Source of the DNA: Azolla caroliniana
Lineage: Eukaryota > Plantae > Polypodiophyta
DNA length: 64,000 nt
Direction of reading: 5' to 3'
NCBI GenBank assembly: GCA_043228905.1
Contig: JBHGNT010000001.1
Span: 806,001-870,000 of the forward strand
Under the pieces are notes generated by a model. That model was not told the origin of the DNA. It worked only from the letters and a program-made list of their open reading frames with translations, and searched no databases. Position numbers and translations under genes: made by a program. Positions 8,501-42,528 of this stretch are shown piece by piece. Numbering within the stretch: position 1 is the first letter of the stretch; each line of letters opens with the position of its first letter.

Positions 8501-10019
8501 AATACCACAAGATACCCCTGCAAATTGTGCCCTCACTATTCTATCATGAAAACTAATAATAATATAACGGAATTATCTCAATCATTTACATTGATAAGAT
8601 AAACCTAGCCCATAGTGGTTATCCCTACCTACTACCAGCAAGTACTCATTACTCATCCCAAGTACCAAACAAAATTTGCATTTTATATTCCTTACTTTTA
8701 GATCTTGTTGATGAATCAAAGTCCTCGTCGTCAAAGTTCAATCAAGTATACAACACAATCATAATTTATCCCTATAAGGCTCCTATATTTTTTTAGTTAT
8801 CATTGTCTTGACTAAAAAAGACAACTTCTCAACATTAGTGCATGACTCTTGGGAAATAAAGTATTTGTCATTTATCAATATGACGCTTGACAAGTATAAT
8901 TTCTTTTCTATTAAACACCACTTCTCTTCTTGTTTCACATTCAAAACAATTGTGTTTGGAAACACAAAGGAAAGTGCTTCACATAATATATGTTTTTCTT
9001 TGATTATTTCCACCCAAGTCTCTCCTTTCATAATTATATAATGTGCAACAATACACCTTCATCATCCGTCTCAAGCCCAAACACTTCAATGATAATTTAT
9101 TCATCCACGATCTACATATTGACTTTGAACATCATACTGCCACCAAATATCATCCTTTCATTGCATTAAAAAAAAAGTCGGGTGCCAATCATTACCCTAT
9201 AGAGATATATTATAGTCTCAAGGTCATTCATACTAAATCTGGCTTTGTAAAAAGGCATCACCATTGAAGAAAGCAAGATGTCGCATGGTCTCCTCAAATG
9301 GCCATATTTGCACTCCCAACTCTCATCAACCTAGTAAACATAGCATTTGACAATTTTATGGGTGTAATCAACACGTTGGGTAAAGACTCAAGACTTGAGG
9401 CTTAAGTTCCACCTTAGATCAAAATGTGATTGTTTTTAAACCTATTGTACCATGCTCATAAGTTGGCTTAGTATTTTCTCTGAATGACAACCAACCTACA
9501 TCAACTGGTGGGATCATTTTGGGTATTATCACAACTGTTGAGAATCAAGCTCAACTTGGTCTAGTGTGTGAACTCACCCTGAGAGTGAATAGACACTCCA
9601 ATGGTCAAGAGTCACCATTATGTCACCACTTTGTATTCTAGCATTATGATTCTATGACACATAACTTATGAGCTTTCACATTCCCCATGCTCCATGAGCC
9701 TTGTAGTTAATGAAGAGAGAGGGTGACTATATAAAGCACCCTCCTCCCACCTTGTATAGTGTTGAGTCTTTCTCCTTTGCTAATATACTTAACCTTGCGT
9801 ATGTCAAGATTCGAACTCTTGACACGACCATGTTATAATCTAGTATTATGAGTTAACCAAGATATCTAGTACTAGTTATGTATGTAATTGGTCCTTATTA
9901 TTTTGCTAGCATCATGTGCATAGTTGCTCCCTTGTAGTATTTACACTTGGCACATGCATGCATACCTACATGCTCTATTGTAGATTTACATGCGTGCAAC
10001 AAGTATGCATGCCATGTAG

Positions 10020-10062
10020 TATAAATAGAGGAGTTCACCTTGAAGGAATTCAAGGTGAACAA
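10020..10062 (+). promoter_or_regulatory. Gypsy LTR TATA box (10020-10027) and predicted TSS/self-primer (10052-10062)
   Basis: TATAAATA; AAGGTGAACAA starts 32 nt after the first base of the TATA box and is complementary to the post-LTR site. Confidence 0.7.
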
Positions 10063-10156
10063 CACCAGTTATGGAGTCTTTCCTTTAATACTATCTTCTT
10101 TCTTGTCCATTTGGTTATCTTCTTGCTTGTCTCTTGAGCTTATGATCCGTGACAGT

Positions 10157-10167
10157 TTGTTCACCTT
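10157..10167 (+). promoter_or_regulatory. Self-priming PBS (non-tRNA)
   Basis: TTGTTCACCTT, 2 nt after the 5' LTR, is the exact reverse complement of 10052-10062; no TGG tRNA-type PBS. Confidence 0.8.
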
Positions 10168-10203
10168 CCATCCTCATAGCTCTCCCTCTCATAAGCCATA
10201 GCT

Positions 10204-11172
10204 ATGTCCGACTCAACTAGTGAGTTAGGCCAAATAATGGTAGCCTTACGACAACTGCAGCTTGAAAATGAAGCTCTTCGAAATTCTTTACAAGAACTTC
10301 AAGTCGGTACCTCCCTATCCTCACAACCCCCGAACCCTAGTCTCCCACAACAACCTAGCCTAGAGCCCGATCTTCTACCAACATCTAGCCTAGCTTCGTC
10401 ACAGTTTCTTGAGCCTAAGGTTAGCCTCCCAGAAAAATTTGATGGAACGAGGTCGCGTTTCCGAGGGTTCATCAACCAAGTTCGACTTATCATTCGGCTA
10501 CAACCTCAACGTTATGGAGATGGTCTTCGACAAGTCGGCCTTGTGGGCACCCTTCTCTCCGGTCCGGCCCAAGCTTGGTTTGCACCATTGGTAGAAACCT
10601 CATCACCTTTATTGGAGGACTTTCCCGCCTTCCTGGCCGAGTTAGAGGCCACATTTGGAGAGACGGACCGACGACGTACAACTCTTAACAAGATTTATGC
10701 ACTCGAACAAGGTTCACGTGCAACTTCGGTCTATGCTTCCGAATTTCGACAACTAGCATGCGACGTCAATTGGGATGATCAAGCTTTAGCTGATCACTTT
10801 CGGCGCGGCCTTCGAAGCAATGTCAAGAATCTTCTCTTAAACTTTCCGGAGCCCACCTCGTTATCCCAAGCGATTTCACAAGCAGTCCATTGTGACAATC
10901 GTCTTTTCGAATTTCGCCAAGAAGAGCGCCGGACTTGGGTTCCATCTCATTCACTTCCACGCCACGCCCCGGTCATACAATCCCAAGCATCCTCACACTC
11001 GCCTACTTTGGCAGATGCTCCTATCCCCATGGAAATTGATCAAGCCCGATTTCGGCCATTGACTGATGTTGAACGACAATTTCGGCGAGCTAATGGCTTG
11101 TGCATGTATTGTGGCGCCTCCGGTCATGTCGTTCGCCATTGTCCTAGGAGTACTCGCCCACAATTCCATTGA
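10204..11172 (+). CDS. gag: Gypsy Gag (capsid + CCHC zinc knuckle)
   Basis: PEKFDG motif, QGSRATSVYASEF MHR-like motif, PMEID, CMYCGASGHVVRHC; the TGA at 11170 may be a premature CGA>TGA with the ancestral stop at 11218-11220. Confidence 0.92.
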   Translation: MSDSTSELGQIMVALRQLQLENEALRNSLQELQVGTSLSSQPPNPSLPQQPSLEPDLLPTSSLASSQFLEPKVSLPEKFDGTRSRFRGFINQVRLIIRLQPQRYGDGLRQVGLVGTLLSGPAQAWFAPLVETSSPLLEDFPAFLAELEATFGETDRRRTTLNKIYALEQGSRATSVYASEFRQLACDVNWDDQALADHFRRGLRSNVKNLLLNFPEPTSLSQAISQAVHCDNRLFEFRQEERRTWVPSHSLPRHAPVIQSQASSHSPTLADAPIPMEIDQARFRPLTDVERQFRRANGLCMYCGASGHVVRHCPRSTRPQFH

Positions 11173-11294
11173 GCTAACGAATCCCAACATCCGGAAAACG
11201 ACATTGTTTGGTTGCAATAGGAGCCATGTAACTGGACATCTCCTGTCGCCCACATTCTCTTGGTTCCATTGCTGGACCATCAGGCAATTTCACA

Positions 11295-14200
11295 TTGGAG
11301 GTATGGCTTTCGTTTAACTCTAGTTCCATTCAGTCTGTTGCTTTACTTGATTCTGGGGCATCTTCTTGCTTCATCGACGTCGCGTTTGCCCAAGCACATG
11401 GCGTACCTATCGTTGGCCTCTCAAAACCCATTCCAGTTGAAGCCATTGACGGGTGCGTCCTCTCGTCAGGTGTAATTACTCAAGCTACAATCCCATTAGG
11501 GCTTCGGGTGGGCTCACACCAGGAGGAGCTCACCTTTTACCTCATCGCATCTCCTCGACATCCGATCGTCTTAGGACTAACGTGGTTGGAGGCGCACAAT
11601 CCAATAGTGGATTGGTGCAACCGCTCGATCACATTTAGCAAGCCAAGATGCTCATGCAAAAGTATGAAGGTAAATTCAGTTTCCTATCCTTCGGAGACGG
11701 TCGACTCCGAATTGACTACCCCAACATCGGTCCAGGATGGGTTTGTTTGTGGCGCCATTTCTAACACACTCCATGTTATTCCCGAAAAATACCAACACTT
11801 CTCCGATGTATTTGAAAAATGTAATGCTGATCGTTTGCCTGAACACCGGTTCTACGACTGTCCGATTGATCTTCAAGAAGGTGCATGTCCACCCTTTGGT
11901 CCTCTATATGCGTTGTTTGCACCAGAGTTGAAGGCCCTTCGTGTGTATCTCGATGAGAACCTCGAGAAAGGATTTATTCAACCTTCTAAGTCACCAGCCG
12001 GGGCCCCCATTTTATTTGTGAAGAAGAAGGACGGCTCTCTACGCTTATGCGTCGACTACCGAGGTCTCAACAAACTCACTGTGCGCAACCGCTATCTGCT
12101 ACCTCTGATCCCCGAACTCCTTGATCGGCTCCGAGTTGCGCGTGTCTTCTCCAAAGTTGATCTGCGTGGAGCGTACAATCTAGTACGCATCAAGCCGGGG
12201 GATGAATGGAAAAATGCATTTCGAACACGGTATGGGCATTTCGAATACAAGGTAATGCCTTTTGGTCTTACTAACGCTCCCGCAATTTTTCAACATATGA
12301 TGAACGATATTTTCCGGCAATATCTTGATCTTTTTGTTGTCATTTACCTCGATGATATTCTCATTTTCTCACCAAACATGGAGGAGCACACTCGCCAAGT
12401 CCGATTAGTTCTTGCCAAACTTCGCGAGCATGGCCTTTATGCCAAAGGCGAGAAATGCGAGTTCGACCGTACCTCGATCGAATTTCTGGGCTACATCATC
12501 TCGCCCACTGGCATCACCATGCATATGAAGAAGGTCTCTGTCATTCAGGCGTGGGCGACTCCAAGGCGACTTAAAGATGTGCAATCCTTCCTCAGCTTTG
12601 CGAATTTTTACCGTCGCTTCATCAAGGGGTTTTCCACCCTAGCACAACCTCTTATCGCTCTCACCCATAAAGGCACTCCATTTTTATGGACCTCGGAGGC
12701 ACAAAATGCGTTCGACTCACTCAAACACGCATTCATCACTACCCTAGTGCTGCTACATGCCGACCCCACAAAACCCTTCCAAGTCGAAACCGATGCCTCT
12801 GACTTTGCCATTGGCGCCATCTTATCCCAAGCAGATGACAACAACCTAATGCACCCAGTGGCTTACTATTCCCGAAAATTTACGGCATCCGAAATCAATT
12901 ATCCCATTTACGATAAGGAGCTTGCTGCTATCATTGCTGCCTTTGAAGAATGGCGACCCTACTTGGCCGGCGCAGAACATCGTGTCCAGGTAGTGACTAA
13001 TCATAAAAATTTAGTTTATTTTTCCACCACTCGTACTTTGAATCGAAGGCAGGCCCGTTGGTCGACATTTCTTGCCGACTACGATTTTGAGATCGTATTT
13101 CGACCTGGTGGCCAACATGGGAAGGCTGATGCCCTTTCTCGTCGAGCTAACCTTGCACTCCGCCCTGGGGATGCTGCTTATGCTCAACAATCTAGACGTT
13201 TGTTGAAACCCGACCAATTGCATCTTTTTGCCACTTCTATGTTGCAGGATGATTCTTTACTCCAACAAATCACTGATGCATCCAAGACCGATGCGTTCGC
13301 CAACGAGATTCGAGATAGTCTGCAAAACCCCTCCAAGGCGACCAAAAGGAAGGATCTTGACACCTTCACCATACAAGAGGATTTGTTGTTCCGAGATCAT
13401 CTCGTATACGTCCCAGAGGGCCCATGTCGCACCCGGGTGTTGCAGGAATGCCACGATGACCCACTTGCAGGTCATTTCAGGGTCGCGAAAACCCTCGAGC
13501 TAATCTCTCGGGGGTATTGGTGGCCACAACCATGGAAGTTGGTCAAAGAATACATAAAGAGTTGTGAGGTTTGTGCTCGCTCCAAAGCCATTCATCATCG
13601 GCCATACGGCTTACTACAGCCACTTCCATGTCCTCGTCGTCCTTGGGCCTCTATCTCTATGGACCTGATAACTGATCTACCCTTGGTCAATAGCTATGAC
13701 TCGGTGTTGGTCATTGTCGATCGGTTTACGAAGATGGCTCACTTCACTCCATGCTCCAAAACCATTTCCGGAGAAGGAATGGTGCATCTCCTACTCAACA
13801 ATGTGGTACGCTTGCATGGACTCCCCGATGATGTCATCTCGGATTACGGACCCCAGTTTGTCTCTCACTTCTGGCAACACCTGCTACAAACTTTAGGCAT
13901 CTCTGTCAAGTTGTCCTCCGCTTATCACCCCCAAACTGACGGGCAAACGGAGCGTGTCAACCAAATCCTTGAGCAGTATCTTCGGTGCTCGGTTAGTTAC
14001 CAACAAGATGATTGGGTCAACTTACTTTCGCTCGCGGAATTCGCCTACAATAATTCTCTCCATGCATCGACTGGCGTCACTCCCTTCTTTGCCAACTACG
14101 GTTTACATCCTCGCTTCAACATTTCCCTTCCTACCACTTCCGTGAACCCTTCGGCGGAGGATCGCGCCCGCATTTTGGAAGAACTACATCATGATTTATC

Positions 14201-14774
14201 CTTGGAGCTCAGTCTTGCTAGTGAACGATACAAGACGCAGGCTGATCGCCATCGATCTTCCACTCCACACTTTGTCGTTGGAGACATGGTCTGGTTGTTA
14301 CGTCGACACATCTCTACTACTCGTCCATGTGCGAAACTTGATTACAAGAAGTTGGGACCATTCCGTATCATCGAGTGCATCAATCCCGCCGCCCTCCGGC
14401 TCGCCCTTCCATCCCACTTCCGGATTCACGATGTTTTTCATGTCTCCCTCCTCGAACCCCATTATGCTTCACAACTCCCACGACGTCAAGCCCCACCACC
14501 ACCACCTGTGCAATTGACGATAGGGGAGGAATACGAGGTCGACCAAATCCTTGACTTGCGTTGGCACCATCGACACTTGCAATACCTCGTCCTATGGAGG
14601 GGTTACCCCATGTCTGAGGCCACATGGGAACCATCGGCAAATTTACAAAATGCCCCAGAGGTCGTCCAAGATTTTCATCACCGATATCCCCACAAACCAG
14701 CGGCCGATTTAGGAAGGCAGCGTAGGAGGGGGGATAATGTCAAGATTCGAACTCTTGACACGACCATGTTATAA
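11295..14774 (+). CDS. pol: Gypsy Pol: protease, RT, RNase H, integrase, chromodomain
   Basis: LLDSGA, YLDD, ETDASDFAIG, HDDPLAGH..CEVC, GQTER, YEVDQIL..YLVLWRGY..TWEP; -1 frame relative to gag; stop lies inside the 3' LTR. Confidence 0.95.
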   Translation: MEVWLSFNSSSIQSVALLDSGASSCFIDVAFAQAHGVPIVGLSKPIPVEAIDGCVLSSGVITQATIPLGLRVGSHQEELTFYLIASPRHPIVLGLTWLEAHNPIVDWCNRSITFSKPRCSCKSMKVNSVSYPSETVDSELTTPTSVQDGFVCGAISNTLHVIPEKYQHFSDVFEKCNADRLPEHRFYDCPIDLQEGACPPFGPLYALFAPELKALRVYLDENLEKGFIQPSKSPAGAPILFVKKKDGSLRLCVDYRGLNKLTVRNRYLLPLIPELLDRLRVARVFSKVDLRGAYNLVRIKPGDEWKNAFRTRYGHFEYKVMPFGLTNAPAIFQHMMNDIFRQYLDLFVVIYLDDILIFSPNMEEHTRQVRLVLAKLREHGLYAKGEKCEFDRTSIEFLGYIISPTGITMHMKKVSVIQAWATPRRLKDVQSFLSFANFYRRFIKGFSTLAQPLIALTHKGTPFLWTSEAQNAFDSLKHAFITTLVLLHADPTKPFQVETDASDFAIGAILSQADDNNLMHPVAYYSRKFTASEINYPIYDKELAAIIAAFEEWRPYLAGAEHRVQVVTNHKNLVYFSTTRTLNRRQARWSTFLADYDFEIVFRPGGQHGKADALSRRANLALRPGDAAYAQQSRRLLKPDQLHLFATSMLQDDSLLQQITDASKTDAFANEIRDSLQNPSKATKRKDLDTFTIQEDLLFRDHLVYVPEGPCRTRVLQECHDDPLAGHFRVAKTLELISRGYWWPQPWKLVKEYIKSCEVCARSKAIHHRPYGLLQPLPCPRRPWASISMDLITDLPLVNSYDSVLVIVDRFTKMAHFTPCSKTISGEGMVHLLLNNVVRLHGLPDDVISDYGPQFVSHFWQHLLQTLGISVKLSSAYHPQTDGQTERVNQILEQYLRCSVSYQQDDWVNLLSLAEFAYNNSLHASTGVTPFFANYGLHPRFNISLPTTSVNPSAEDRARILEELHHDLSLELSLASERYKTQADRHRSSTPHFVVGDMVWLLRRHISTTRPCAKLDYKKLGPFRIIECINPAALRLALPSHFRIHDVFHVSLLEPHYASQLPRRQAPPPPPVQLTIGEEYEVDQILDLRWHHRHLQYLVLWRGYPMSEATWEPSANLQNAPEVVQDFHHRYPHKPAADLGRQRRRGDNVKIRTLDTTML

Positions 14775-15193
14775 TCTAGTATTATGAGTTAACCAAGATA
14801 TCTAGTACTAGTTATGTATGTAATTGGTCCTTATTATTTTGCTAGCATCATGTGCATAGTTGTTCCCTTGTAGTATTTACACTTGGCACATGCATGCATA
14901 CCTACATGCTCTATTGTAGATTCACATGCGTGCAACAAGGATGCATGCCATGTAGTATAAATAGAGGAGTTCATCTTGAAGGAATTCAAGGTGAACAACA
15001 CCAGTTATGGAGTCTTTCCTTTAATACTATCTTCTTTCTTGTCCATTTGGTTATCTTCTTGCTTGTCTCTTGAGCTTATGATCCGTGACAGCGTATATTT
15101 TGTGTGTGTCTCTCTCTCTATCTCATACACATACACACACACACAGTTCACACCTATTCCGCTTCACAAGAATCCATCTCTTGATTCTTTACA

Positions 15194-15205
15194 TGGTATC
15201 AGAGC
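15194..15205 (+). promoter_or_regulatory. Copia PBS (tRNA-iMet)
   Basis: TGGTATCAGAGC directly after the 5' LTR end. Confidence 0.9.
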
Positions 15206-15350
15206 GATTTGGTAGCTCGATCTAGCCCATTCGCCTCATCGTGATCGTGTGTTGTGCTCTACGCCGACGACCAAGAACCGGCTCATAGCTATCGTAGCTT
15301 CACTACATAGCTCGCTTTTGGAGAGAAGAAGAAGAAGAAGAATCGACATA

Positions 15351-18300
15351 ATGAGTACTCAAATGGGGAGCGCTCTCCCTACCAAGAAGTTGGATCGAAA
15401 CAACTTCGCATCTTGGGAGTACAAGATGCACCAATACCTTGTCGGACAAGGCTATTGGAGCTACATCAAAGGAGCGCATGAAGACCGACCTACCGAAGCG
15501 ACTCACGGATACACGACATGGAAGCAAGCTGCAAGCCGCGTGATGTATTGTTTGGTGACATGTGTTCACGACCACATGCTCCGTTACATTTGAGCAGCCA
15601 AGACGCTGAAGGAAGCGTGGGAAAATCTACGAAAGATTTTCGCCGCCAACACGACCGCGAGGAAGCTTCAACTCCGCCAAGAGTTGAACAACATTCAACA
15701 AAGGGACATGTCCATCACGACATACACCTTGAAGATCAAGGAGCTTTGCGACTCGCTCGACTCAATAAGCGTAAGTATAGATGATGATGAGATGGTGCAA
15801 ATATGCCTCAGCGGCCTCGCACCACGGTTCGGCGTGATGCGAACCGCCGTTCTAGCATAGGAGAAATCTCCCTCCTTCTTCGAGCTCCAATCTATGCTAT
15901 TGGTCGAAGAAAACCACGTGCGTACAAGGAGCAATGAGTTGGAAGGCCACATGCTCTACACGCACTCTAATGGAGGAAGAGGACGCGGACAACAACTCCC
16001 AATTTTGGCCGCAAAACGGAGGCCAACGAGGAACCTTCGCAAGAAGGGGAGCTTCCACTCCGGCCCGAGCCATCAAAACGCAACCAAATGCGGATATTGC
16101 GGAAAGCTCGGCCACCACGAAGAAGAGTGCCGAAAGAAGATGCGTGAATCGGCTTCCACAAGCCGACAACTCACGAATTACGCACACAACTCCGACTACG
16201 AAGATCGTGGCGGAATGTATGCGCACAACTCCGACCATGGCGGAATGTTCATGATGAAACATAGAGCAAACTCTATGTCGGCCGCTACCTCAACTAGTGC
16301 CTTTGGTCCGAAAGACGTATGGTTCGTCGATTCCGGTGCCTCGAACCATATGACATCGCATCAAGAATGGTTCCGAGAACTTCGACAACCAGGTCGACCC
16401 GGCTATGTCGAAACCGGAGACGACACTACACACCCGATTCAGCACATTGGCAATGTTCTGTTCGGAAAAGAAGGTAAGCAAAATTACATTAAAAATGTCT
16501 TGCATGTACCGACCATTACGAAGAATTTGGTCTTCTCGGCCAAATTGTAGAGCAAGGGATTCAAGTTCGATTTAATCAAGGCGGTTGCTTCATCGAAAAA
16601 GAGGGCCGACCTATTGCACGCAGACGAAGAGAGGGCCGGATGTTCATTCTCGATTCACGCTGTCGTGAAGAAAACCGTCCCTTAGCGCAATCAGTGTATA
16701 GCGCGCGCGAACCGGCTCTTCACGCGTGCGTGCCCTCTAATGTATATAATAAAGGATTAGTACAAAGGTATATCCTAGGTAGTTAGATTCGGTAGGTAGG
16801 AAGTTAATGAGGGAAACGGTTCCCTTCTTGGAGCTATAAAAGAGAGGGAGGCGCGGGGAGAAAGGGATCGCGCATTGAGGAGGACAAAGTGTTGTCGGAC
16901 CGTAACCGAACGCTTCTCCTCTGTTCATTCTCCATCGCTCTTCTCTGCAGGTTTTCGGGAGGCTCGCGCTGCTTCGAGGAACGCCCGTGTGCTTCCGGCA
17001 ACACCTCCATCCTATCCCCTTTCGTGCGCAGATGAGCACGCATCGACATCTGTTCGCCGGCCTGTTCGGTTGTAACCGCTCGCGTGCTCTGTTGTTTTGT
17101 GTCATTTGTTAATATACAAACATTTGTGTCTCTCTGCCTCTGTGTCCATTCGTGTTTTCTGCGTTGACGGGCCATGTCCCTGTGTTTCTTTGCTCATACG
17201 TAACCGGTCGTCCCTCTCTTTCTCTTCCCCCTCCTATCACCTGCTCTTCGGTTCAAGACCCCGGTGGTCCCGCCTCGTTTCTCCATGCACGCGCGTAGTA
17301 ACGCGACAACGTGAGATGAAATCCGCCATGTTCGCGAAAAACACGAAAGTCGACTCCGACATAGAGCTATGGCACAAGCAAATTGGCCACATCAATATCA
17401 ACAAACTTAAAGCAATGAAATCAAAAGGAGTCGTCATCGGACTCCCCACATTCAAAGAGAAGGAGATTGAAGGTGTATGCGAAGCGTGCCAATTCGGCAA
17501 GCAACACCGACGCCCATTCCCGAAAGAGCGGAACGTGAGCAAAGGTCTACTCGACGTAGTCCATTCCGACGTATGGGGACCAGCGCAGATGGCTACATTT
17601 GGCGGATGCCGATATTACGTGCTCTTCATCGACGACTTCTCTAGGCACACTTGGATCTACCCGATGCGGCAAAAAAGCGAAGTGTTCGGACACTTCCAAA
17701 ATTTCAAGAATGAAGTCGAGAAAGCCACGGGCCGACATGTACGATGCCTTCAATCGGATGGCGACAAGGAGTACTTCTCGGACGATTTCACGGCGTATCT
17801 CCGAAAGGAAGGAATTCGGTGAGAATTCACTTGCAGACACACTCCGCAACAAAACGGAGTAGCCGAGCGCAAAAGTCGGCACATCCTCAAAGTAGCGCGG
17901 GCCATGATGAACGAGAAGCATATGCCCAAGTCATATTGGGCAGAAGCTGCAAATACAGTCGTCTACCTAATGAACCGGTGCACAACATCCGGCGTGCACG
18001 AGGTCACTCCGCACGAAAAATACTTCGGAAAGAAGCCGGACTTATCGCACATCCGGATATTCAGCGCGATAGCGTACGTGCACATCCCCGAGGAGAAGCG
18101 TCAAAAGCTTGACCCAAAGTCGGAGAAATGTATCCTCGTAGGATACTCATTGGAGCAAAAGGGGTACAAGTGCTACAACCCCTCAACTCGAAAATCTCGA
18201 GTAAGTCGAGATGTCATTTTTGACGAGTCTGCATCATGGTACGCACTAGAGACAACTTCGCCTCTGCTCGACCCGGAATTTGCCGAACAAGAGATCGAGG

Positions 18301-20222
18301 ATGAAGATCGCCCTACGCGCATGATCGAAGAAAGTCTGATCACGACCCGACTGAGCGGACCACAAGAGCCTTTGAGCGATCAAAGCACATCACGGCCTAG
18401 CCCGAAGATGGACAAAGGCAAGGCGAAAATGGTGGAATATGAAGACGATCGCTTCGACGACGATGAATCAACTCACTCACTCGATAGTGAGTTCGGCGGC
18501 TTCGATGTACCAATCGGAGCTAAGAAAGCCCTCATCTCTGCAAATGAAAAGCTCTACCGATCCACTCGAGAAAAGAACCATGTAAGTCGATTCGGCTACA
18601 ACGATTATATGGCGTACCATTACGCCTTTATGATGAAGATAGCGACAATACAGGAGCCGGAAACCTTTTCGAAAGCCCCGAAGGACCCGCGATGGATCGA
18701 AGCAATGAACGAGGAGATGCAGGCACTACGGAAGAACGAGACGTGGGATCTCGTTTCCACCTCACCACACAAAAAGGCAATCGGATGCAGATGGATCTAC
18801 AAGGTGAAGTATAACGCTGATGGCTCCGTAAACCGCTACAAAGCTCGACTCGTAGCGAAAGGATACGCTCATACGCATGGCGTCAACTACGAAGAGATCT
18901 TTGCCCCGGTGGCAAAGATGACGACGGTGCGGACCGTAATTGCGCTTGTCGCGGCGAAAGGGTGGCACCTCCATCAAATGGACGTCAAGAACGCCTTTCT
19001 ACAAGGCGAATTAGAAGAGGAGGTGTACATGATACAACCACCCGGCTTCAACTCGAGCACCCATCCAAAAGTCGTATGCCGACTCAAGAAGCCACTCTAC
19101 GACCTCAAGCAAGCACCGCGTGCTTGGCATTCGAAGATAACGCAATATCTTCATCAAATCGGCTTTCGTATGTCAAAATCGGACAACTCCCTCTACATAC
19201 GAGGTGATTCCGCAAGTCCGATCGTCATCATCTTATATGTGGATGACCTAGTCATTGGAGGTGAGCATCTCGTCAAAATCACTAAGGTCAAATCCCTCCT
19301 TTCCGACAAGTTCGAGATGATGGACATGAAGGAGCTCCACTACTTCCTTGGCATCGAGGTGATTCGGACTCCGGCCGGAATCATGATCTCTTAACGGCAC
19401 TACATCCTCAACTTGTTATACAAGTTCAGGATGGCTGAGTGCAAATCTGTGGCAACCTCGCTCGATCGTAATCTCAAACTAGATGCAAACTCCGGCACCA
19501 AAGCGTGTGAGCCGACTCGGTATCGGCAACTCATCGGGAGTCTCATCTACCTCACGATCACTCGACCCGATCTCAGTTATCCGGTCGATCTCCTTAGCCA
19601 ATTCATGCAAACACCGCGTGATATTCACTTGGATTGCGCTAAGCGAGTTCTACGATACGTGAGCGGCACAATGGATTGCGGCATCCTCTACAAGACCGCA
19701 ATGATAATACGACTCGAGGGGTACACAGACGCCGATTGGGCCAACTACAAAGCCGATAGAAGATCAACCTCCGGATTTGTTTTCTCCCTCGGCAGCGGAG
19801 CAATATCCTAGAGTAGCAAGAACCAGCCTACCGTCACTCTTTCGAGTACGGAGGCGGAATATAGAGGCGCAGCCGTAGTTGCAAGTGAAGTCGTATGGCT
19901 CAAGAGGATTTTGAAGGATCTGGGCGTACCCATCATGGATCCGACTTCCCTTTACTGCGACAACATGAGCAGTATCTATCTAGCTCGGAACCCGGTGTTC
20001 CACGCGCGGAAAAAGCACATCGAAGTGCACTATCACTTCATCCGAGAGCGCGTTCTGGCTGGCAGTGTCGACCTACAACACATTAGCACCAATCTTCAAA
20101 CGGCCGACATCTTCATTAAAGCCTTAGGAGTCGACAAGCTATGGCAATTCATGACCGATCTCGGATTGACGATCCCTGACCTGCCAAGCTTGAGGGGGAG
20201 TACTGAAGACACTACGCAATAA
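15351..20222 (+). pseudogene. Copia gag-pol pseudogene
   Basis: NFASWEYKM, CGYCGKLGHHEEEC, WFVDSGASNHMT, HSDVWGP, YKARLVAKG, LYVDD, YTDADW, KHIEVHYHFIRE; stops at 15591, 15858, 17820, 19392, 19809; frameshift near 16536; insertion 16661-17308. Confidence 0.93.
16661..17308 (+). mobile_element. Solo LTR of an unrelated element inserted in the Copia pol
   Basis: TGTCG...CGACA inverted termini; TATAAAA at 16835; flanks ACGC/ACGT; removing it restores the Copia frame MFILDSR-EMKSAMF. Confidence 0.8.
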
Positions 20223-22314
20223 CGCATAGATTCCGCAACCACGCAACGAAGCAGCGAAGAGCCGATCTACCGAGCAAAGCCACGAAGAAAGACGCAAGCC
20301 GAAGCACAGACTTCGTAACTACGCACAACGCAAGCTGGAGCATGGATTCCGCAACTCCGCATAAAGCGAGTCGACGTGGACTCTGGAACGTGAGTTGAAG
20401 CGGATTTCGGATACCGTCTGAAACCGACTTGAGCTTCAGGGGGCGTGTTGAGAATCAAGCTCAACTTGGTCTAGTGTGTGAACTCACCCTGAGAGTGAAT
20501 AGACACTCCAACGGTCAAGAGTCACCATTATGTCACCACTTTGTATTCTAGCATTTAGTATGAGTCATAGAATCATATTCTATGACACATAACTTATGAG
20601 CTTTCACATTCCCCATGCTCCATGAGCCTTGTAGTTAATGAAGAGAGAGGGTGACTATATAAAGCACCCTCCTCCCACCTTGTATAGTGTTGAGTCTTTC
20701 TCCTTTGCTAATATACTTAACCTTGCGTATACTCTGTGTGTGTCTCTCTCTCTATCTCATACACATACACACACACACAGTTCACACCTATTCCGCTTCA
20801 CAAGAATCCATCTCTTGATTCTTTACAACAACATTAGATGTGTTGCTTGTTCACGAACAAGTGTCATATTGAGGCCATTGTTTTTACACATTGTCAACAT
20901 TAATACCAACACTAGACTCCAACAACATACTACTAAGTGTGAATAAGCGAAAGGTAATAGTGGTCGATGAAAAGCCACCATATTGGTGTGCTTTAGGATT
21001 AGATGGCAAAGAATGGAAATTCAAGACAAGTGAATGATTTGCATAAACCTTCGAGCACAAATGTGAGGATAAAGGTAACAACAAAATGATGCTACAAGAA
21101 CAATAATATTTACCAAAAAGAACATCTTTTATGTATAGCCTTAGGGTATTTCTTAATACTAATGTAGTATCTTTTCTTGGGAAAAAAAAAAGAATAATTA
21201 TAAACTCTAGTCTTCTTAGTGCTGAGATGGTCAATAGGGCACAATCTTCAAAATAAGTTCTTGACCATTGATTTCATGCTTTTACCTAAATGTGTTTGTG
21301 AGACAACGGTGTGCTTGTATTCAATGTGAGACAAGGTGTTGGGGCAAATACAAGGAGTCTCTTTGCCTATAAATATGTTGCATGGAATAAGCTCCTAAAT
21401 TTGATATCACGCTATTGTGTTGCCCCACCTTTGATCATATTTGAGTTTGATGGGTCTCAATCTCATGATTTCTTGTCAAAGGTTGTCATATCTCATGTGA
21501 TCTTTTAACAAGGCAACAAGAGGCGAACTCCCTTCAAACATTGTGAATACATTGCAAATAATAACTAAGAAAAATATGCACACATTACTAAAACCTCAGA
21601 TATTCAAGTTTAGTTCATCTATAAATGGAGAGGAAAGCCCACATATTAACGGCTACAAACGCCAACAAATATCTATCTACAAATATCAAGAGAATGTATT
21701 CCAAAAGATGCATTGGCAAAATGTTTCCAAGCAAGGTTCATAACATATCCAACTAATGCAGGTGTTTTACGGAGGAGAAATTCATGAACTATTAAGACTT
21801 GCATCATAGAATTTCTGGAGGTCCTTTATAGAAGAGAAATTCATGACTCAGTTCACCTTATTTGTCTCTCTTGACACCGATTAAATGGTCAAGACATTCA
21901 GCAAAGACGATATCCCTTTACCTGGATCAAAAAACTTTGTTTCTTTATAAAGGTACTTTTCTACAAACTTTTCTGGCTACAAAATCTACCAGAATTCTGT
22001 TAAAATTGAATTGAAAAATGGAGTCAGCATCTTTTCTTTTCTTGCTAATCCATTAATAGCAGCTCATTTCATATTTAATAAGAACCAACATTGTGTTGAA
22101 TGTAACATACATTAAATTACCTAGGATAAAATGGATAATGGATATTGCAAGGCTATTTAAAGAATCTAAGCTCATTTCACAACTGATAATATAACAAGAT
22201 AGCACAAATTTGGCAGTTTATTGAAGGATACTAACTCTACATGTACACATCAGCTATAACGAAGAATCCCAAAAAATCTTCTCAAAAAAAATTCACTCAG
22301 TATAACAAATAATC

Positions 22315-37392: not shown

Positions 37393-37544
37393 GAGGAACG
37401 AGGGTTTGCATGGTACACAATAATAGCACATGTAGTAATGGTACTGGTTTTTGTTTCTCATGTAACATACTTCATGATTATAGACTATAACTTTACCAAA
37501 AATTGGTGATGTTAACTATTCATTTTGATTTTTACTATTTATTG

Positions 37545-37945
37545 GATATTCTTTATTGAATATGATGGTTTGCTCCATAACATTGATACCATCAGAGTGG
37601 GTTGATTTTCTTTATTTTCTGATCACTCCATAACATTGATACCTTCAGAGTGGGTTGATATTCTTTATTTTCTGATCGCTCCATAACATTGATACCATCA
37701 GAGTGGGTTGATATTCTTTATTTTCTTATCACTCCATAACATTGATACCTTCAGAGTGGATTGATATTCTTTATTTTCTGATCGCTCCATAACATTGATA
37801 CCATCAGAGTGGGTTGATATTCTTTATTTTCTGATCACTCCATAACATTGATACCTTCAGAGTGGGTTGATATTCTTTATTTTCTGATCGCTCCATAACA
37901 TTGATACCTTCAGAGTGGGTTGTTATTCTTTTCTTTCTGATAGCT
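37545..37945. repeat. 53-bp minisatellite, about 7.5 copies
   Basis: CTCCATAACATTGATACC recurs at 37573, 37626, 37679, 37732, 37785, 37838, 37891. Confidence 0.95.
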
Positions 37946-39888
37946 GGACTTGAGTTGCAGAAGATTCCATCCAAAACTGCCTCATTTGTGTAGTTTGTGA
38001 AATGTATATGTAAAAGAAAGACAGTTTTGAGTCAATATGAAGTACTCTGAGCAGCTCTTATGTAAACGCAACATGGCATTTTGAATTAATTATAATAAAT
38101 GGTAATATCTCATTTTGCATTATTATATATTCCAATTGTCATCATGTTGTCTTATATACATGTTAAATTTGTCTTAATCCAAAATATGAAGCATGGACAC
38201 CACATGCATCTATGCTTTTGTTTGGAAAGGAATAATAAAACTCATAATTTGTGAATTTTATTGGGACAAGTAAAAACGTACAATGTTTGAAAAATATTGA
38301 ACTACCCTAGTGTATACATACGAGTATGCAATGTAGTTGGATGGTCATCAAGATGGTTCTTGGAACAAATTGTCCAATGTAACCATTCATGGTCTCTAAT
38401 TGTTGTGGGAATTTGTTTTGTTGCATAGCTTTGTACAACTTAATGAAAAGTTGTTGACAAGTTGGGGTTTGACTTGCATGTTGAGATGTAGATGTGGTAC
38501 CTACCCATGGACATTGTGGGATAAAATTGGGGCTGGCCCATAGAAGGCATAACCTCTTGGGGCTAGAATTGGTTTGGAGCGCGAAAATGATGTTACCTGA
38601 ACAAAACGCTTGTTTGTGATTTGTATAATTATGATTGTCAAAAGCCTTCCGCTGTTGGAGATGCTCAATGGTTAACTACAACATGCTTTTGAGGTGCTTC
38701 TCATCAAGTTTGAGTAGATAAATCAGGCATTGTTGTAGGAATGAGTCCTCACTCATTTTTTCCATAACTTGGAGCTAAAGACTTGATACCAAAATCTTAA
38801 TTGGTCTGATGGCCACCAACTGCACACCAAATAGAACAATATGATGTTGATGCTTGTCTTGAAGCTAGTGCACTAGGCCTAGAGTGTGAACTAGATACCA
38901 ACTTTTTTATACGCACGATGTTCTTGTTATGCATGGTTGCCACCTAACATTGATGTGTGCCAAAGCTTAGTGTTGAACCGGAATGGGTTGACAACATCAA
39001 GATCTTGCGCGCGCGCACACACACACACACACAATACTCCTATTGTTATGTATAGTTGCCATCTAGCATTGATGTGCGTTTACCACTTGCTATTGTGTAT
39101 GGTTGCCACTTGGCAATCATATATTTAGATATATACATGTCATCTCCCATATGATAGTATGATAGTTAAAATTCATTGCGCACAGATCATGGGGGTGACT
39201 ACCAAAACCTATACTTTGTGTTTGCTCATGACACCCTCTTGTTTGACAAAGAGTTTCATGAGTCTCAATGCACTAAGAGGGACTTGGTTTATCAAGCTAT
39301 TGATGATGAATTATGATACACGATCTTGGAAATTATCAAGATCTCCGTGGGTTCTGAAGTTTGATCACTTGGCATATGACTCAACCAATCAAAGAGGCAA
39401 CATAACTTGTGCATGATCTTGGAGTTCAAAACAACTTCATCAATAAGTTGAACATAACTTAAGGGTGGAATTGCCCAACCCGAAATAGAACTAGAGTTCC
39501 AACAATCAGATGTTTAACATTGGATGTATACACATAATCTAACCCATCAAATGGCATGATAGTGTTCATATCATGTCAAAATATCCATGTACGACTCAAA
39601 CCGTGACTTTGGTGAAGAGTTGAGGTGATGATGATCTATGGAAGATGTGTGTGGTTTGTGCATCATGCAAATATTAAGAAATTTCAGTTTGATTACTTGG
39701 AGTTGTGTTTTACAATCTTGAACTTTAGAATTCTTAGAGATTTCTAGATGTTCAATCATGGTCCAACATGGATCAACACCCCCCACGGAAGGAGTAGAGA
39801 GTTATAATGAATTGTATTGACCATCTAACATTGGTGATGTTTGCAACAACCTATATGGATGATATCAATGTATCTTAGATCAAGAATA

Positions 39889-41624
39889 TGTCACGACACA
39901 ACGATGTCAAATACATAGTTAGTGAGGATTGAACTTGCAACCTCACAGCTACAAGATATCATGCTCAACCATTTTGATATGAGCATGGATTTGTATAATA
40001 ATTTAGTATTCTATAGTCTAGCATATAATACATTTTAGAATCAAAATATTCTAGAAATATTTTACAACATATTCTAGACGAGTATATTCTAGACGAGTAT
40101 ATTCTAGAGATATTCAATTTCGGAACATGTATAAATACTTGTAACCTCCTTGGTCCCTTCAAGGGATTCAATGCCAGTCATTACACATCAATCTAGTATT
40201 CTCGTTTCGCCTCATCTTTGTCTCCTTGATCTTGATTTCTATCTTCATTCCCTCATGTCGCTCACAACATTTAGAGTTCCTAGCCTCGTCACATCTAGCT
40301 CCAAGTTCATCCGTCGCTCATAGCACCATCATTTATGCTCCGTCCTAGTTCGCGCTTGGTGTGTTCGTTGACAATTTGAATCCCTTCCAACTGGGAGCAC
40401 CACCCGTCTTCGTCATCGCCTTTGCATCTAGAGTTACCATCATCACCGTCCTTGCTTCCGGAGTTATCGTCATCAGCATCCTTGTCTTCGACGTCATCAT
40501 TTTCAGCACCTCTTCGCCCAACCATCGTCATCATCAACACTACTTGTCATCATTTTTAGGTATCATTTTGCATCACAGTTTTGGTGAGGAGTGCTTTTGA
40601 TTGCTCTCCTTCCTAGTTCTGGGGGGGGTCACAACCACTCACTTTCCTGGTGGGGATTGGATCATTGCTCGCTTGCACTGTATTTTCGTTATAGTTCAAG
40701 TCTCGCGCAACTTTCTGTTGGCGAGGACCAATTTCGATCGCTCACCTGGTCACATGGTCGCTCACTCCCGTTTGTGTTCTAATTCCCAATGAGGGCCGCA
40801 TGGTCGCTCATGCCCGTTCATGTTCCCGGACCGCACATGGTCTCTCACGTTTGTCCCTGTTCTAGTCTTCGATGAGGGTCACACATGGTCGCTCACACCC
40901 GTCGGCATTCTAATCTCCGGTGAGGACTGTACATGGTTGCTCACACTCGTCAGTGTTCCAATCTCCAGGGAGGACCGCACATGGTCACTCACGTCCATTG
41001 GTGTTCTAGTCTCCGGTGAGGACAATATATGGTTCCTCACGCCCTTCAGTGCTCCAATTCCCGTCCAACCCTACACCACACTTTTGAAAAGGCAGCCGTA
41101 AAGGGGAGGATAATGTCACGACACAACGATGTCAAATATATAGTTAGTGAGGATTGAACTTGCAACCTCACAACTACAAGATATCATGCTCAACCATTTT
41201 GATATGAGCATGCATTTGTATGATGGTTTAGTATTCTTTAGTCTAACGTATAGTACATTTCAGAATTAGAATATTCTAGTCAGTAGTATATTCTAGAAAT
41301 ATTGTAAGACATATTCTAGACGAGTATATTCTAGAGATATTTCTCGAGTATATTCTAGAGATATTCAATCTCGAAACATGTATAGATACTTGTAACCTCC
41401 TTGGTCCCTTCAAGGAATTCAACGCCAGTCATTGACACATCAATCTAGTATTCTCGTTTCGCCTCATCTTTGTCTCCTTGATCTTGATTTCTATCTTCAT
41501 GCCCTCATGTCGCTCGCAACATTTAGAGTTCCTCGCCTCGTCACATCTAGCTCCAAGTTCATCCGTCGCTCGTAGCCCCATCATCTGTGCTCCGTCCTAG
41601 TCCACGCTTGGTGTGTCCGTGACA
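39889..41624 (+). mobile_element. Non-autonomous LTR retrotransposon (TRIM/SMART-like) related to self-priming chromoviruses
   Basis: LTRs 39889-40373 and 41114-41624 (TGTCA..TGACA); TSD GAATA/AAATA; PPT AAAGGGGAGGATAA; 740-bp internal region without gag/pol motifs; self-complementary PBS 40376-40386. Confidence 0.9.
40746..41062 (+). repeat. Degenerate 48-bp tandem repeat inside the non-autonomous element
   Basis: GAGGACCGCACATGGTCGCTCAC-like units at 40874, 40922, 40970, 41018 plus partial copies upstream. Confidence 0.85.
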
Positions 41625-42528
41625 AAATATACATCACAAGTTTGACCATAGTCCTCAACAGAATTGCAAAGTGATGCCATCAATACTTCCAAAACTCCTG
41701 CTTGTGGGTGCATCAAGTAGTGTTGCAAGACTTGGAGTAGAAAACGTATCTTATTTAGAATGTTTTAAGGATACATGTGATGGCATATATTTTGATAAGT
41801 GTATCATCCATATTGTGTTGTTGTTTAAGACTTCATAACATTGGCTAAAAGTAAAAAGATGTTATTAGCTAAGTAGGGTCCAACTACATCATGAGTTTGG
41901 AAGGACAATACTAGTGTAATTACCGAAGATAAATGGGCAATGAAGGTGGATGAAGAATTAGGTGGTTTATAACTATGGTAGGTAGTAAGCGATGCAATAA
42001 ATAAAGGTCCTTAAAAAATCAAGTTTTAGGTTTGAAACTTATTGGATGCACTTTTAAAAGAAAGGAAAAGGAGTAGAGCAATTTCAAGTCTAATCCACTT
42101 TTGGTCTGATCTAATTTATTGCAATGCAATAGACAACTAGAATACAATTTTAAAGTTTGGAAAATGTAGAGGAAAGATAAGATTTAACTAAGAGAGAACG
42201 AAAGATATATTAATGTCTTCTAAGGCCAAAATTGGCCCATGAGAGAGAGAGGGAGAGAGAGAGTGGTATCCACACTAGAAATCAAACATGATGTATGGCA
42301 TGGGATCAAACTAATGGCAAGGGTAGAACTTGGTTTCCCTCAATTTTATCACTATGATGCTATGGTTTAAATTCGTTGTGCTTTGTAATGTGGGGAGGTA
42401 TCGATTAGATGGAATGTTACTTGATATGTTTGGTGGTGACATCATTGTTGGCCACAACCTGGAAATCCTATCATCCATTTTGTGGGAAAGTGTTTCTTTG
42501 GTGGATGAGTTACCTTTGATGACCTTAA

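What the first reader, a model, noticed from the sequence alone, without database searches (positions are those of the whole stretch)
39889..41624. Miniature non-autonomous retroelement with its own self-primer, co-varied relative to the autonomous chromovirus
Seen: this 1.7-kb element has no gag/pol. TATAAATA is at 40130, and AAGGGATTCAA (40161-40171) is the exact complement of TTGAATCCCTT (40376-40386), 2 nt after the LTR. A second helix pairs GTCATTACACATCAA (40177-40191) with TTGGTGTGTTCGTTGAC (40356-40372); the 3' LTR copy pairs 15/16 including G-U. Geometry matches the Gypsy at 9802: 11-bp duplex, 5-nt loop ending CCA (TGCCA vs CACCA) and 3-nt opposite loop. The primer differs at 4 of 11 aligned positions, with compensating PBS changes. 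The two elements also share termini (TGTCA.GA ... TCCGTGACA) and the AAGGCAGC(C)GTA-polypurine-GGATAA PPT context, while LTR bodies look unrelated. Established: described TRIMs use tRNA primers. Inference: a tRNA-independent parasite family mobilised in trans by Tcn1-like enzymes that recognise RNA shape rather than sequence. I am not aware of one being described.
Basis: partly seen in the sequence, partly recalled or inferred. Interest (0 to 1): 0.85.

Follow-up and report, generated by a model that had tools for sequence, protein, structure and literature searches.

The report
Self-priming parasite retroelement with private primer
A gene-less, multi-copy jumping element in a plant (likely fern) genome carries, where a tRNA normally binds, an exact mirror of its own predicted RNA start, so it likely primes its own copying with enzymes borrowed from related full-length elements, using a primer sequence seen in none of the full-length relatives sampled.

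Summary
39889-41624 is a non-coding LTR element (LTRs 94% alike, target-site duplication 4/5). Its PBS (40376-40386) is the exact complement of 40161-40171, 31 nt behind the TATA box. It is not a one-off deletion: it is highly repeated in four related organisms, and its interior has no homology to sampled autonomous elements. In metagenome contigs, 17 of 17 junctions with its PBS lead into the non-coding interior, and 0 of 15 gag-bearing junctions have that PBS. Primer and PBS match in three sequence types. A recombinant subfamily took U3 and primer from the window's Gypsy family, with the crossover at nt 9-12, and its PBS switched to match. Best reading: a Tf1-style self-primed parasite of several Tcn1-like families. 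Corrections: it exceeds TRIM size, its U3 resembles another gag-bearing element, and the matching changes amount to only about three events and may be templated. Start site and cleavage are untested, and two primer/PBS mismatches remain unexplained. I found no published case (10 searches), but this scan has noted self-primed mini-elements in other genomes. New variant of a known kind.

The parts
39884..39888 (+). Left target-site duplication GAATA
   Evidence: right copy AAATA, 4 of 5 match
39889..40373 (+). 5' LTR (485 bp, TGTCA...TGACA)
39926..39935 (-). B-box-like motif of a degenerate antisense tRNA-like stretch at the LTR start; function untested
   Evidence: 18 of 25 LTR starts, minus strand only; sub-threshold tRNA hits in 2 of 6 loci
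40130..40137 (+). TATA box, 31 nt before the primer (32 nt in nearly all relatives)
40161..40171 (+). Predicted RNA 5' end and self-primer, type I (AAGGGATTCAA)
40172..40176 (+). 5-nt loop after the primer; predicted cleavage between 40171 and 40172
   Evidence: loop conserved; cleavage inferred from Tf1
40177..40191 (+). 5' arm of the second helix
40356..40372 (+). 3' arm of the second helix (end of U5)
40376..40386 (+). Primer-binding site TTGAATCCCTT, no TGG start
40374..41113 (+). Non-coding internal region, 740 bp
40751..41069 (+). Array of ~48-nt degenerate tandem repeats, shared across the family
41089..41113 (+). Polypurine tract and its context, shared with the Gypsy
41114..41624 (+). 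3' LTR (511 bp); TATA variant at 41381-41388; primer copy 41412-41422 with one change at 41416
41625..41629 (+). Right target-site duplication AAATA
9802..15090 (+). Young autonomous Tcn1-like chromovirus (gag 10195-11172, pol 11232-14774; LTRs differ at 4 of 353; TSD GCGTA): one candidate helper family
10052..10062 (+). Gypsy self-primer, type II (AAGGTGAACAA), complement of 10157-10167
10033..10060 (+). 12-bp U3/R hairpin whose 5' arm is complementary to the Gypsy primer
   Evidence: z -6.9

Best explanation
This is one copy of an abundant non-coding LTR retroelement family whose primer-binding site is the exact complement of an 11-base stretch of its own LTR, and which likely primes its own reverse transcription with that stretch using enzymes borrowed from Tcn1-like chromoviruses. 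Shown: two LTRs, a near-perfect 5-bp duplication, a PPT, no coding capacity, many copies, matching primer and PBS in three sequence types, and LTR pieces exchanged with autonomous families. Inferred steps: (1) Pol II starts at about 40161, 31-32 nt behind TATA. (2) The RNA is co-packaged in particles of one or more Tcn1-like helpers. (3) Nt 1-11 pair with the PBS, braced by a second helix that is longer in the parasites than in the helpers. (4) The helper's RT-RNase H cuts after nt 11 and extends the fragment. (5) Strand transfer, PPT priming and integration at TGTCA...TGACA ends follow as usual. The type I primer is private to the parasite and cannot pair with the helpers' PBS, so the helper enzyme would have to accept different central base pairs. 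The PBS is likely re-copied from the retained primer each cycle, which would keep the two in step.
For: Geometry and chance. Summed contig depth hundreds of times the flanks over LTR and interior in organisms A, B and C, with 47-100 contigs leaving the 3' end into unlike sequence, agreement 0.37-0.38. In four organisms only one PBS variant row (single contigs at 40377) reached 1%, against 19 rows at 40393-40410. 17 of 17 type I junctions lead into the non-coding interior; 15 of 15 gag-bearing junctions have type II or III. Of 32 distinct primer+PBS units, 29 pair 11/11, one has a G-U and an A-C, and two are cross-type mismatches. Cognate duplexes are -14 to -16 kcal/mol, type I against II or III about -4. 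The TATA-primer distance is 32 nt almost throughout, while R-U5 runs 52-246 nt at a median 78% identity. L022 keeps only the two helices (z -6.6). Recombinants L004, L010 and L027 carry the Gypsy family's U3 and primer on the parasite's R-U5, with a type II PBS before an unchanged parasite interior. Their last helper-type base is nt 8 and first parasite-type base nt 13, which brackets the predicted cut. Both hybrid junctions also appear in Logan contigs (primer side in X1, X2, X11; PBS side in X13). The helper looks Tcn1-like, and self-priming is predicted for 83% of Tcn1 elements (PMC6317226, supplementary row).
Against: No RNA data, so start site and cleavage are untested. Two distinct units (L001; L010 and L035) join primer I to PBS II; these may be assembly chimeras across a shared 170-nt R-U5 but were not resolved. 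The matching changes come from about three events, and all loci come from 14 probably related assemblies. The search pattern fixed the LTR end and 7 of 11 PBS positions, so an autonomous type I element with other termini or at low copy could be missed. The third duplex of the Tf1 'pretzel' was not supported in the parasites (49-99 of 100 shuffles as good in the rows shown, output cut). The window copy's whole fold is unremarkable (z -1.66). The tree does not resolve the order of primer types. The host's tRNA set could not be searched.
Confidence: 0.8

Rival explanations
1. The family self-primes, but it is the deletion derivative of an autonomous Tcn1-like family that has, or had, the same type I primer. 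The primer is then inherited, not private, and nothing follows about enzyme tolerance.
For: The sample is collapsed metagenome contigs, not a genome. U3 regions are shared with gag-bearing elements L044 and L029. Five junctions could not be classed, though all five are type II.
Against: 0 of 15 gag-bearing junctions are type I. Eleven non-autonomous interiors show no blastn hit (E 0.05, word 7) to 14 autonomous sequences except one PPT match. U3 similarity to L044 and L029 stops at the TATA box. Recombinants tie the family to a type II helper.
Confidence: 0.1
2. The primer/PBS pairing is real but vestigial or serves packaging, and minus-strand synthesis is primed by a host tRNA fragment or by a primer released from helper RNA.
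For: No direct test of priming. The host tRNA set was not available. Half-tRNA priming exists in some plant and fungal elements (PMC6317226, PMC10886601 passages).
Against: No TGG within 5 nt of the LTR. The PBS changed in step with the LTR copy in three types. A helper primer pairs with PBS I at about -4 kcal/mol against -14 for the cognate. Half-tRNA priming is reported only for Copia lineages in plants.
Confidence: 0.05
3. Most copies arose by DNA-level amplification (tandem arrays, unequal recombination or integrase-independent insertion) of a few old insertions, and the conserved primer and PBS only reflect recent common descent.
For: Many contigs show an LTR preceded by a PPT and interior (L003, L005, L024, L034, L035), which fits arrays or assembly cycles. 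Only one copy with both flanks was examined, and its duplication is imperfect.
Against: Diverse right-hand flanks in four runs. R-U5 and U3 diverge strongly while primer and PBS do not. Single-copy flanks surround the window copy.
Confidence: 0.05

Closest known systems
Tf1/Tf2 (S. pombe), Tj1, Tosmo1-3, Tcry1 and the Tf1/sushi self-priming group (passages of bioRxiv 2022.12.06.519325, and PMC4600332; the Levin, Lin and Butler papers seen as titles only, content recalled)
   Same: PBS complementary to the predicted RNA 5' end, no tRNA; 11-nt duplex (the length for Tf1 is recalled); a second duplex next to the PBS.
   Different: All described members encode Gag and Pol; this family does not. 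The third duplex of the 'pretzel' is not supported here.
Plant Tcn1 chromoviruses (PMC6317226 passages and one supplementary row; PMC2864245 passages)
   Same: 5-bp TSD, predicted self-priming; the window's Gypsy has gag, PR, RT, RH, IN and a chromodomain with the three aromatic cage residues (cage positions recalled), and scores higher to fungal proteins (57-59%) than to named angiosperm ones (38-39%).
   Different: Tcn1 elements are autonomous and were described there from mosses and club-mosses. The host here is likely a fern (best named hits of a window gene are Adiantum and Ceratopteris). No named Tcn1 reference was available for a tree.
TRIMs, including Cassandra, PbTRIM, biv-TRIM, Helenus and Ajax (passages)
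   Same: Two LTRs, PBS position, PPT, no coding capacity, mobilised in trans, possible tandem arrays.
   Different: TRIMs are defined as under 1 kb with 100-250-bp repeats and a tRNA PBS. This element is 1.7 kb with ~500-bp LTRs and has no tRNA PBS. biv-TRIM lacks a canonical PBS, but no mechanism was proposed. Helenus uses tRNA primers; the tRNA-like stretch here is degenerate, antisense and shared with the helpers.
Medium-length non-autonomous LTR families of sugar beet (PMC13570524, 12 of 27 passages); LARDs (recalled)
   Same: Intermediate size, modular exchange of LTR and interior by template switching, loose tie to any one helper.
   Different: All six PBS motifs reported there are tRNA-derived; no self-priming appeared in the passages seen.

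Membership tests
Non-autonomous LTR retrotransposon | Two LTRs with TG...CA ends and a target-site duplication | tested here: met
   (TSD 4 of 5)
Non-autonomous LTR retrotransposon | PBS position and PPT present, no gag/pol | tested here: met
Non-autonomous LTR retrotransposon | Multi-copy family with a shared non-coding interior | tested here: met
Non-autonomous LTR retrotransposon | Independent insertions each with its own TSD | tested here: inconclusive
   diverse flanks, but only the window copy has both flanks
TRIM (strict definition) | Under 1 kb, repeats of 100-250 bp | tested here: not met
   1736 bp, LTRs 485 and 511 bp; relatives' interiors 1245-1459 bp; definition
TRIM (strict definition) | PBS complementary to a tRNA 3' end | tested here: not met
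   no TGG within 5 nt of the LTR
Tf1/sushi-type self-priming | PBS complementary to LTR sequence at the expected RNA start | tested here: met
Tf1/sushi-type self-priming | Transcription starts at the first base of the primer | not testable with these tools
   no RNA holder listed
Tf1/sushi-type self-priming | RNase H cleavage after the primer | not testable with these tools
   only indirect: recombinant crossover at nt 9-12
Tf1/sushi-type self-priming | Duplex between R and the U5 end next to the PBS | tested here: met
   mean 14.7 of 16 ungapped pairs in 18 non-autonomous units, 9.6 in 14 others
Tf1/sushi-type self-priming | Third duplex with sequence downstream of the PBS ('pretzel') | tested here: not met
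   no parasite row shown beats shuffles; the window's Gypsy does (0 of 100), other autonomous rows mostly do not; output cut
Tcn1 clade (the Gypsy at 9802) | Chromodomain with aromatic cage, 5-bp TSD, self-priming PBS | tested here: met
Tcn1 clade (the Gypsy at 9802) | Placement with Tcn1 in an RT-RH-IN tree | not tested
   no named Tcn1 reference held; only hit ranking
Helenus | tRNA-derived A/B-box promoter in the LTR | tested here: inconclusive
   antisense, sub-threshold, also in helpers
Helenus | tRNA or tRNA-fragment primer | tested here: inconclusive
   no tRNA 3'-end match; fragments not testable without the host tRNA set

The most novel reading that the evidence does not exclude
A self-primed parasite lineage has evolved a private primer/PBS pair that no helper shares and that cannot cross-pair with helper RNA. 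It hitchhikes on several Tcn1-like families by swapping U3 modules at the TATA box, and can revert to a helper's primer in one step by strand transfer at the cleavage site with automatic rewriting of the PBS. The helpers in turn hide their 3' primer copy in a strong U3 hairpin that co-varies with the primer, a hairpin the private-primer parasites have largely lost.
Probability: 0.5. Interest if true: 0.65.

Novelty: new variant of a known kind. Interest (0 to 1): 0.5.

Why it matters
Self-priming has been shown or predicted for autonomous elements, and non-autonomous LTR elements are described as tRNA-primed. A self-primed parasite with a primer unlike its helpers' would show that the cleavage and priming step works in trans and tolerates other central base pairs. 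The natural primer swaps, the 52-nt minimal leader (L022) and three primer types give ready substrates to test what Tcn1-type RNase H recognises, something not yet tested in plants as far as I found. Practically, such families are missed by tools that require a tRNA PBS. It joins two known principles and adds no new chemistry, and this scan has noted similar mini-elements in other genomes, so the interest is moderate.

Tried and rejected
No whole genome is held, so no copy census was possible. No RNA holder listed; expression and start site were not tested. Viral contigs: 0 matches. Of 50 metagenome loci, 8 (L002, L006, L007, L008, L017, L026, L040, L050) were dropped as chance matches with no primer and no homology, and L037 as a duplicate of L036. 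A third pretzel duplex was sought and not supported in the parasites. The idea that the type I primer arose by a 9-nt register slip from the Gypsy's upstream AAGGAATTCAA was considered; it is not favoured, because the TATA distance is unchanged and that loop is specific to one helper family. My first count of U3 hairpin pairs (one column) was off by one and was redone. A significant U3 hairpin in type I parasites was not supported (7-55 of 200 shuffles as good; z -0.36). Rfam and ARAGORN found no RNA gene in the window copy. The tree could not order the primer types. A recalled lead that the rice element Echidne is a non-autonomous partner of self-primed Houba could not be confirmed and stays open. 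Look-ups of earlier findings by sequence and in this genome showed nothing on this family.

Full report
OBSERVATION. The element is as described. The 5' LTR is 39889-40373 and the 3' LTR 41114-41624, with 30 mismatches in 484 aligned columns, and the flanks read GAATA and AAATA. The 740-bp interior has no frame over 102 codons, no similarity to the window's Gag or Pol, an array of ~48-nt repeats and a PPT. Bases 40161-40171 are the exact complement of 40376-40386. An 11-nt match anywhere in the LTR arises in 33 of 20,000 random trials, and at this distance from TATA the chance is about 1.5e-5. The Gypsy at 9802-15090 encodes Gag, protease, RT, RNase H, integrase and a chromodomain, has LTRs differing at 4 of 353 bases and shows the same geometry with a primer differing at positions 5-8. 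The window copy of the small element looks aged: its 5' LTR helix 2 carries private indels (table 4), its 3' LTR has a changed TATA and one change in the primer copy, and its whole leader folds no better than shuffles (z -1.66). The best named relatives of one window gene are from ferns, at 38-40% identity, so the host is likely a fern.

IS IT A FAMILY? Yes. No genome is held, so I used public runs. Fourteen DNA runs of 7 studies hold part of it. Laid on four runs of organisms A, A, B and C, summed contig depth is hundreds of times the flanks over both LTR and interior (for X1, 16,000-93,000 against 30-45 in most flank bins); this is not a copy number. In each run 47-100 contigs leave the 3' end into unlike sequence, agreement 0.37-0.38, which mixes PBS junctions and genomic flanks. 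On the PBS region in organisms A-D, one variant row fell inside the PBS (single contigs) against 19 rows in 40393-40410; variants near contig ends can be hidden.

RELATED LOCI. A scan for the LTR end plus PBS with the central four bases free gave 50 loci. I dropped 8 chance matches and one duplicate; the other 41 come from 14 assemblies that are probably related and are collapsed short-read contigs. They hold 47 junctions. Seventeen have the element's PBS (type I), in 9 assemblies, and all 17 lead into the family's non-coding interior. Fifteen lead into gag: 14 with the Gypsy's PBS (type II) and one with a one-base variant (type III). Eight are type II before the family's interior, two belong to a sister non-coding subfamily (L009 type II, L041 type III, same repeats in L009), and five type II junctions are unclassed. 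The gag-pol loci span 80-95% RT-region identity to the window's Gypsy, so several autonomous families share primer II. Eleven non-autonomous interiors have no blastn match to 14 autonomous sequences beyond one PPT hit, so the family is not a simple deletion of any sampled helper.

PRIMER AND PBS MOVE TOGETHER. Among 32 distinct units holding both (30 from loci, 2 from the window), 29 pair at 11 of 11, L038 has one wobble and one mismatch, and two join primer I to PBS II. Positions 5-8 show two or three pair types. These reflect about three events (II to III, II to I, I back to II), not thirty, and the outer seven PBS positions were fixed by my pattern. Cognate duplexes are -14 to -16 kcal/mol and type I against II or III about -4. 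The TATA-primer distance is 32 nt in nearly every unit, while type I R-U5 runs from 52 to 246 nt at a median 78% identity. L022 has lost everything except the two helices and folds at z -6.6. Helix 2 averages 14.7 of 16 pairs in 18 non-autonomous units and 9.6 in the 14 others. A third, pretzel-type duplex was not supported in the parasites. The two mismatched units (L001; L010 and L035) all use one 170-nt R-U5 shared by types I and II and may be assembly chimeras, but I could not show that.

WHO IS THE HELPER? L004, L010 and L027 carry U3 80-86% like the window's Gypsy family, its primer, then the parasite's R-U5, a type II PBS and the parasite's interior; L001, L004 and L010 also carry the last ~100 bases of the helper's pol and its PPT. 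L027 and the type I locus L023 share R-U5 and differ by the same four bases in primer and PBS. All 14 other (gag-bearing or unclassed) units have A at nt 13 and the three recombinants have G, like L023, so the crossover lies at nt 9-12. That is where strong-stop DNA would end if nt 1-11 had been cut off as primer; it is probably one event and so only suggestive. The hybrid primer junction also appears as loose ends in X1, X2 and X11 (4, 7 and 7 contigs) and the hybrid PBS junction in X13 (4 contigs). This argues for co-packaging with that family. It is not the only partner: the window copy's U3 is 71-73% like L044 and several type I subfamilies are 72-78% like L029, in the longer matches ending at the TATA box. 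The parasite's own module thus runs from TATA through primer, R-U5, PBS and interior. In the tree the type II rows sit among type I rows, but support is weak.

MECHANISM. Most likely (0.8): Pol II transcription from about 40161; co-packaging by a Tcn1-like helper; pairing of nt 1-11 with the PBS, braced by helix 2; cleavage after nt 11 by the helper's RT-RNase H; then ordinary strand transfer, PPT priming and integration. All enzymatic steps are inferred from Tf1. For Tf1, the primer is reported not to be removed (Atwood-Moore 2006, title only) and about half of the cDNA keeps a full PBS copy at its 3' end (PMC11042837 passage). The PBS would therefore be re-copied from the primer, which explains joint change without pair-by-pair compensation and would happen only if the LTR stretch is the primer.

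SIDE FEATURES. Helper-type LTRs have a hairpin across the predicted start whose 5' arm is complementary to the primer; 11 of 15 type II and 2 of 2 type III sequences beat all 200 shuffles, and the arm changes with primer III (z -6.9 for the window's Gypsy). It could form only in the 3' LTR transcript, where it would hide the second primer copy (inference). In 9 type I sequences it is weak (7-55 of 200). A B-box-like motif lies antisense at 18 of 25 LTR starts, helpers included, with sub-threshold tRNA hits in 2 of 6 loci (21.4 bits against 29).

WHAT IS KNOWN. Self-priming is established for Tf1 and proposed for the Tf1/sushi group (passages), and predicted for 83% of plant Tcn1 elements and for TAR Copia (PMC6317226: passages, one supplementary row, part of the reference list). 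TRIMs are defined as under 1 kb with a tRNA PBS (PMC6934838 passages); PbTRIM, Helenus and the 115 sugar-beet families are tRNA-primed in the passages seen. bioRxiv 010850 has no 'self' occurrence, nor has PMC1940013; PMC2864245 found no PBS for SM-Tcn1. Ten searches (one search returned only unrelated papers) showed no described self-primed non-autonomous element. Subscription papers, Repbase and bioRxiv supplements were not visible and may hold one. This scan has 11 notes with these words in at least 7 other genomes, mostly fungi (8 shown, unchecked), and none on this sequence.

VERDICT. A real and well-supported new variant of a known kind: a self-primed non-autonomous partner of Tcn1-like chromoviruses, with a private primer and natural primer-swap recombinants. 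It is not a TRIM by strict definition. The start site, the cleavage and the absence of an autonomous type I element await direct tests. Interest 0.5.

Noticed in passing
window 10033-10060 and 14969-14996; L011, L012, L021, L025, L028, L029, L036, L041, L042, L047, L049: A 12-bp hairpin spans the predicted start site in helper-type LTRs; its U3 arm is complementary to the self-primer and changes with primer type III, while the loop varies between families. It may mask the 3' copy of the primer. Weak in type I parasites.
   Followed up: partly
window 39926-39935 and 9808-9817 (minus strand); L003:187-257, L034:2017-2087: Degenerate tRNA-like stretch with a B-box-like motif, antisense, at the start of both helper and parasite LTRs (18 of 25 LTR starts; none on the plus strand); below the Rfam tRNA threshold.
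   Followed up: partly
L022:990-1057 (minus strand): A low-coverage copy whose R-U5 is only 52 nt and keeps just the primer duplex and helix 2: a natural minimal leader.
   Followed up: partly
L009, L041: A sister non-coding subfamily with a different interior start, helper-type primers (II, III) and, in L041, a helix 2 of over 20 bp.
   Followed up: partly
window 9536-20827: The Gypsy at 9802-15090 sits inside the left LTR of a Copia-type element (RVT_2 at 17823-19394; matching LTR pieces at 20446-20827).
   Followed up: no
window 10195-11172 and 11232-14774: The Gypsy's gag and pol lie in separate frames with a stop between them; how Pol is expressed was not examined.
   Followed up: no
L003, L005, L024, L034, L035, L010: LTRs preceded by a PPT and interior, i.e. 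tandem arrays or assembly cycles.
   Followed up: no
window 37519-37994: Array of 53-bp tandem repeats, 2 kb upstream of the element.
   Followed up: no
L013, L015, L018, L028, L039: Type II junctions without a gag hit downstream; L015 has protease sequence directly behind the PBS, so some are probably internal-deletion derivatives of helpers.
   Followed up: no
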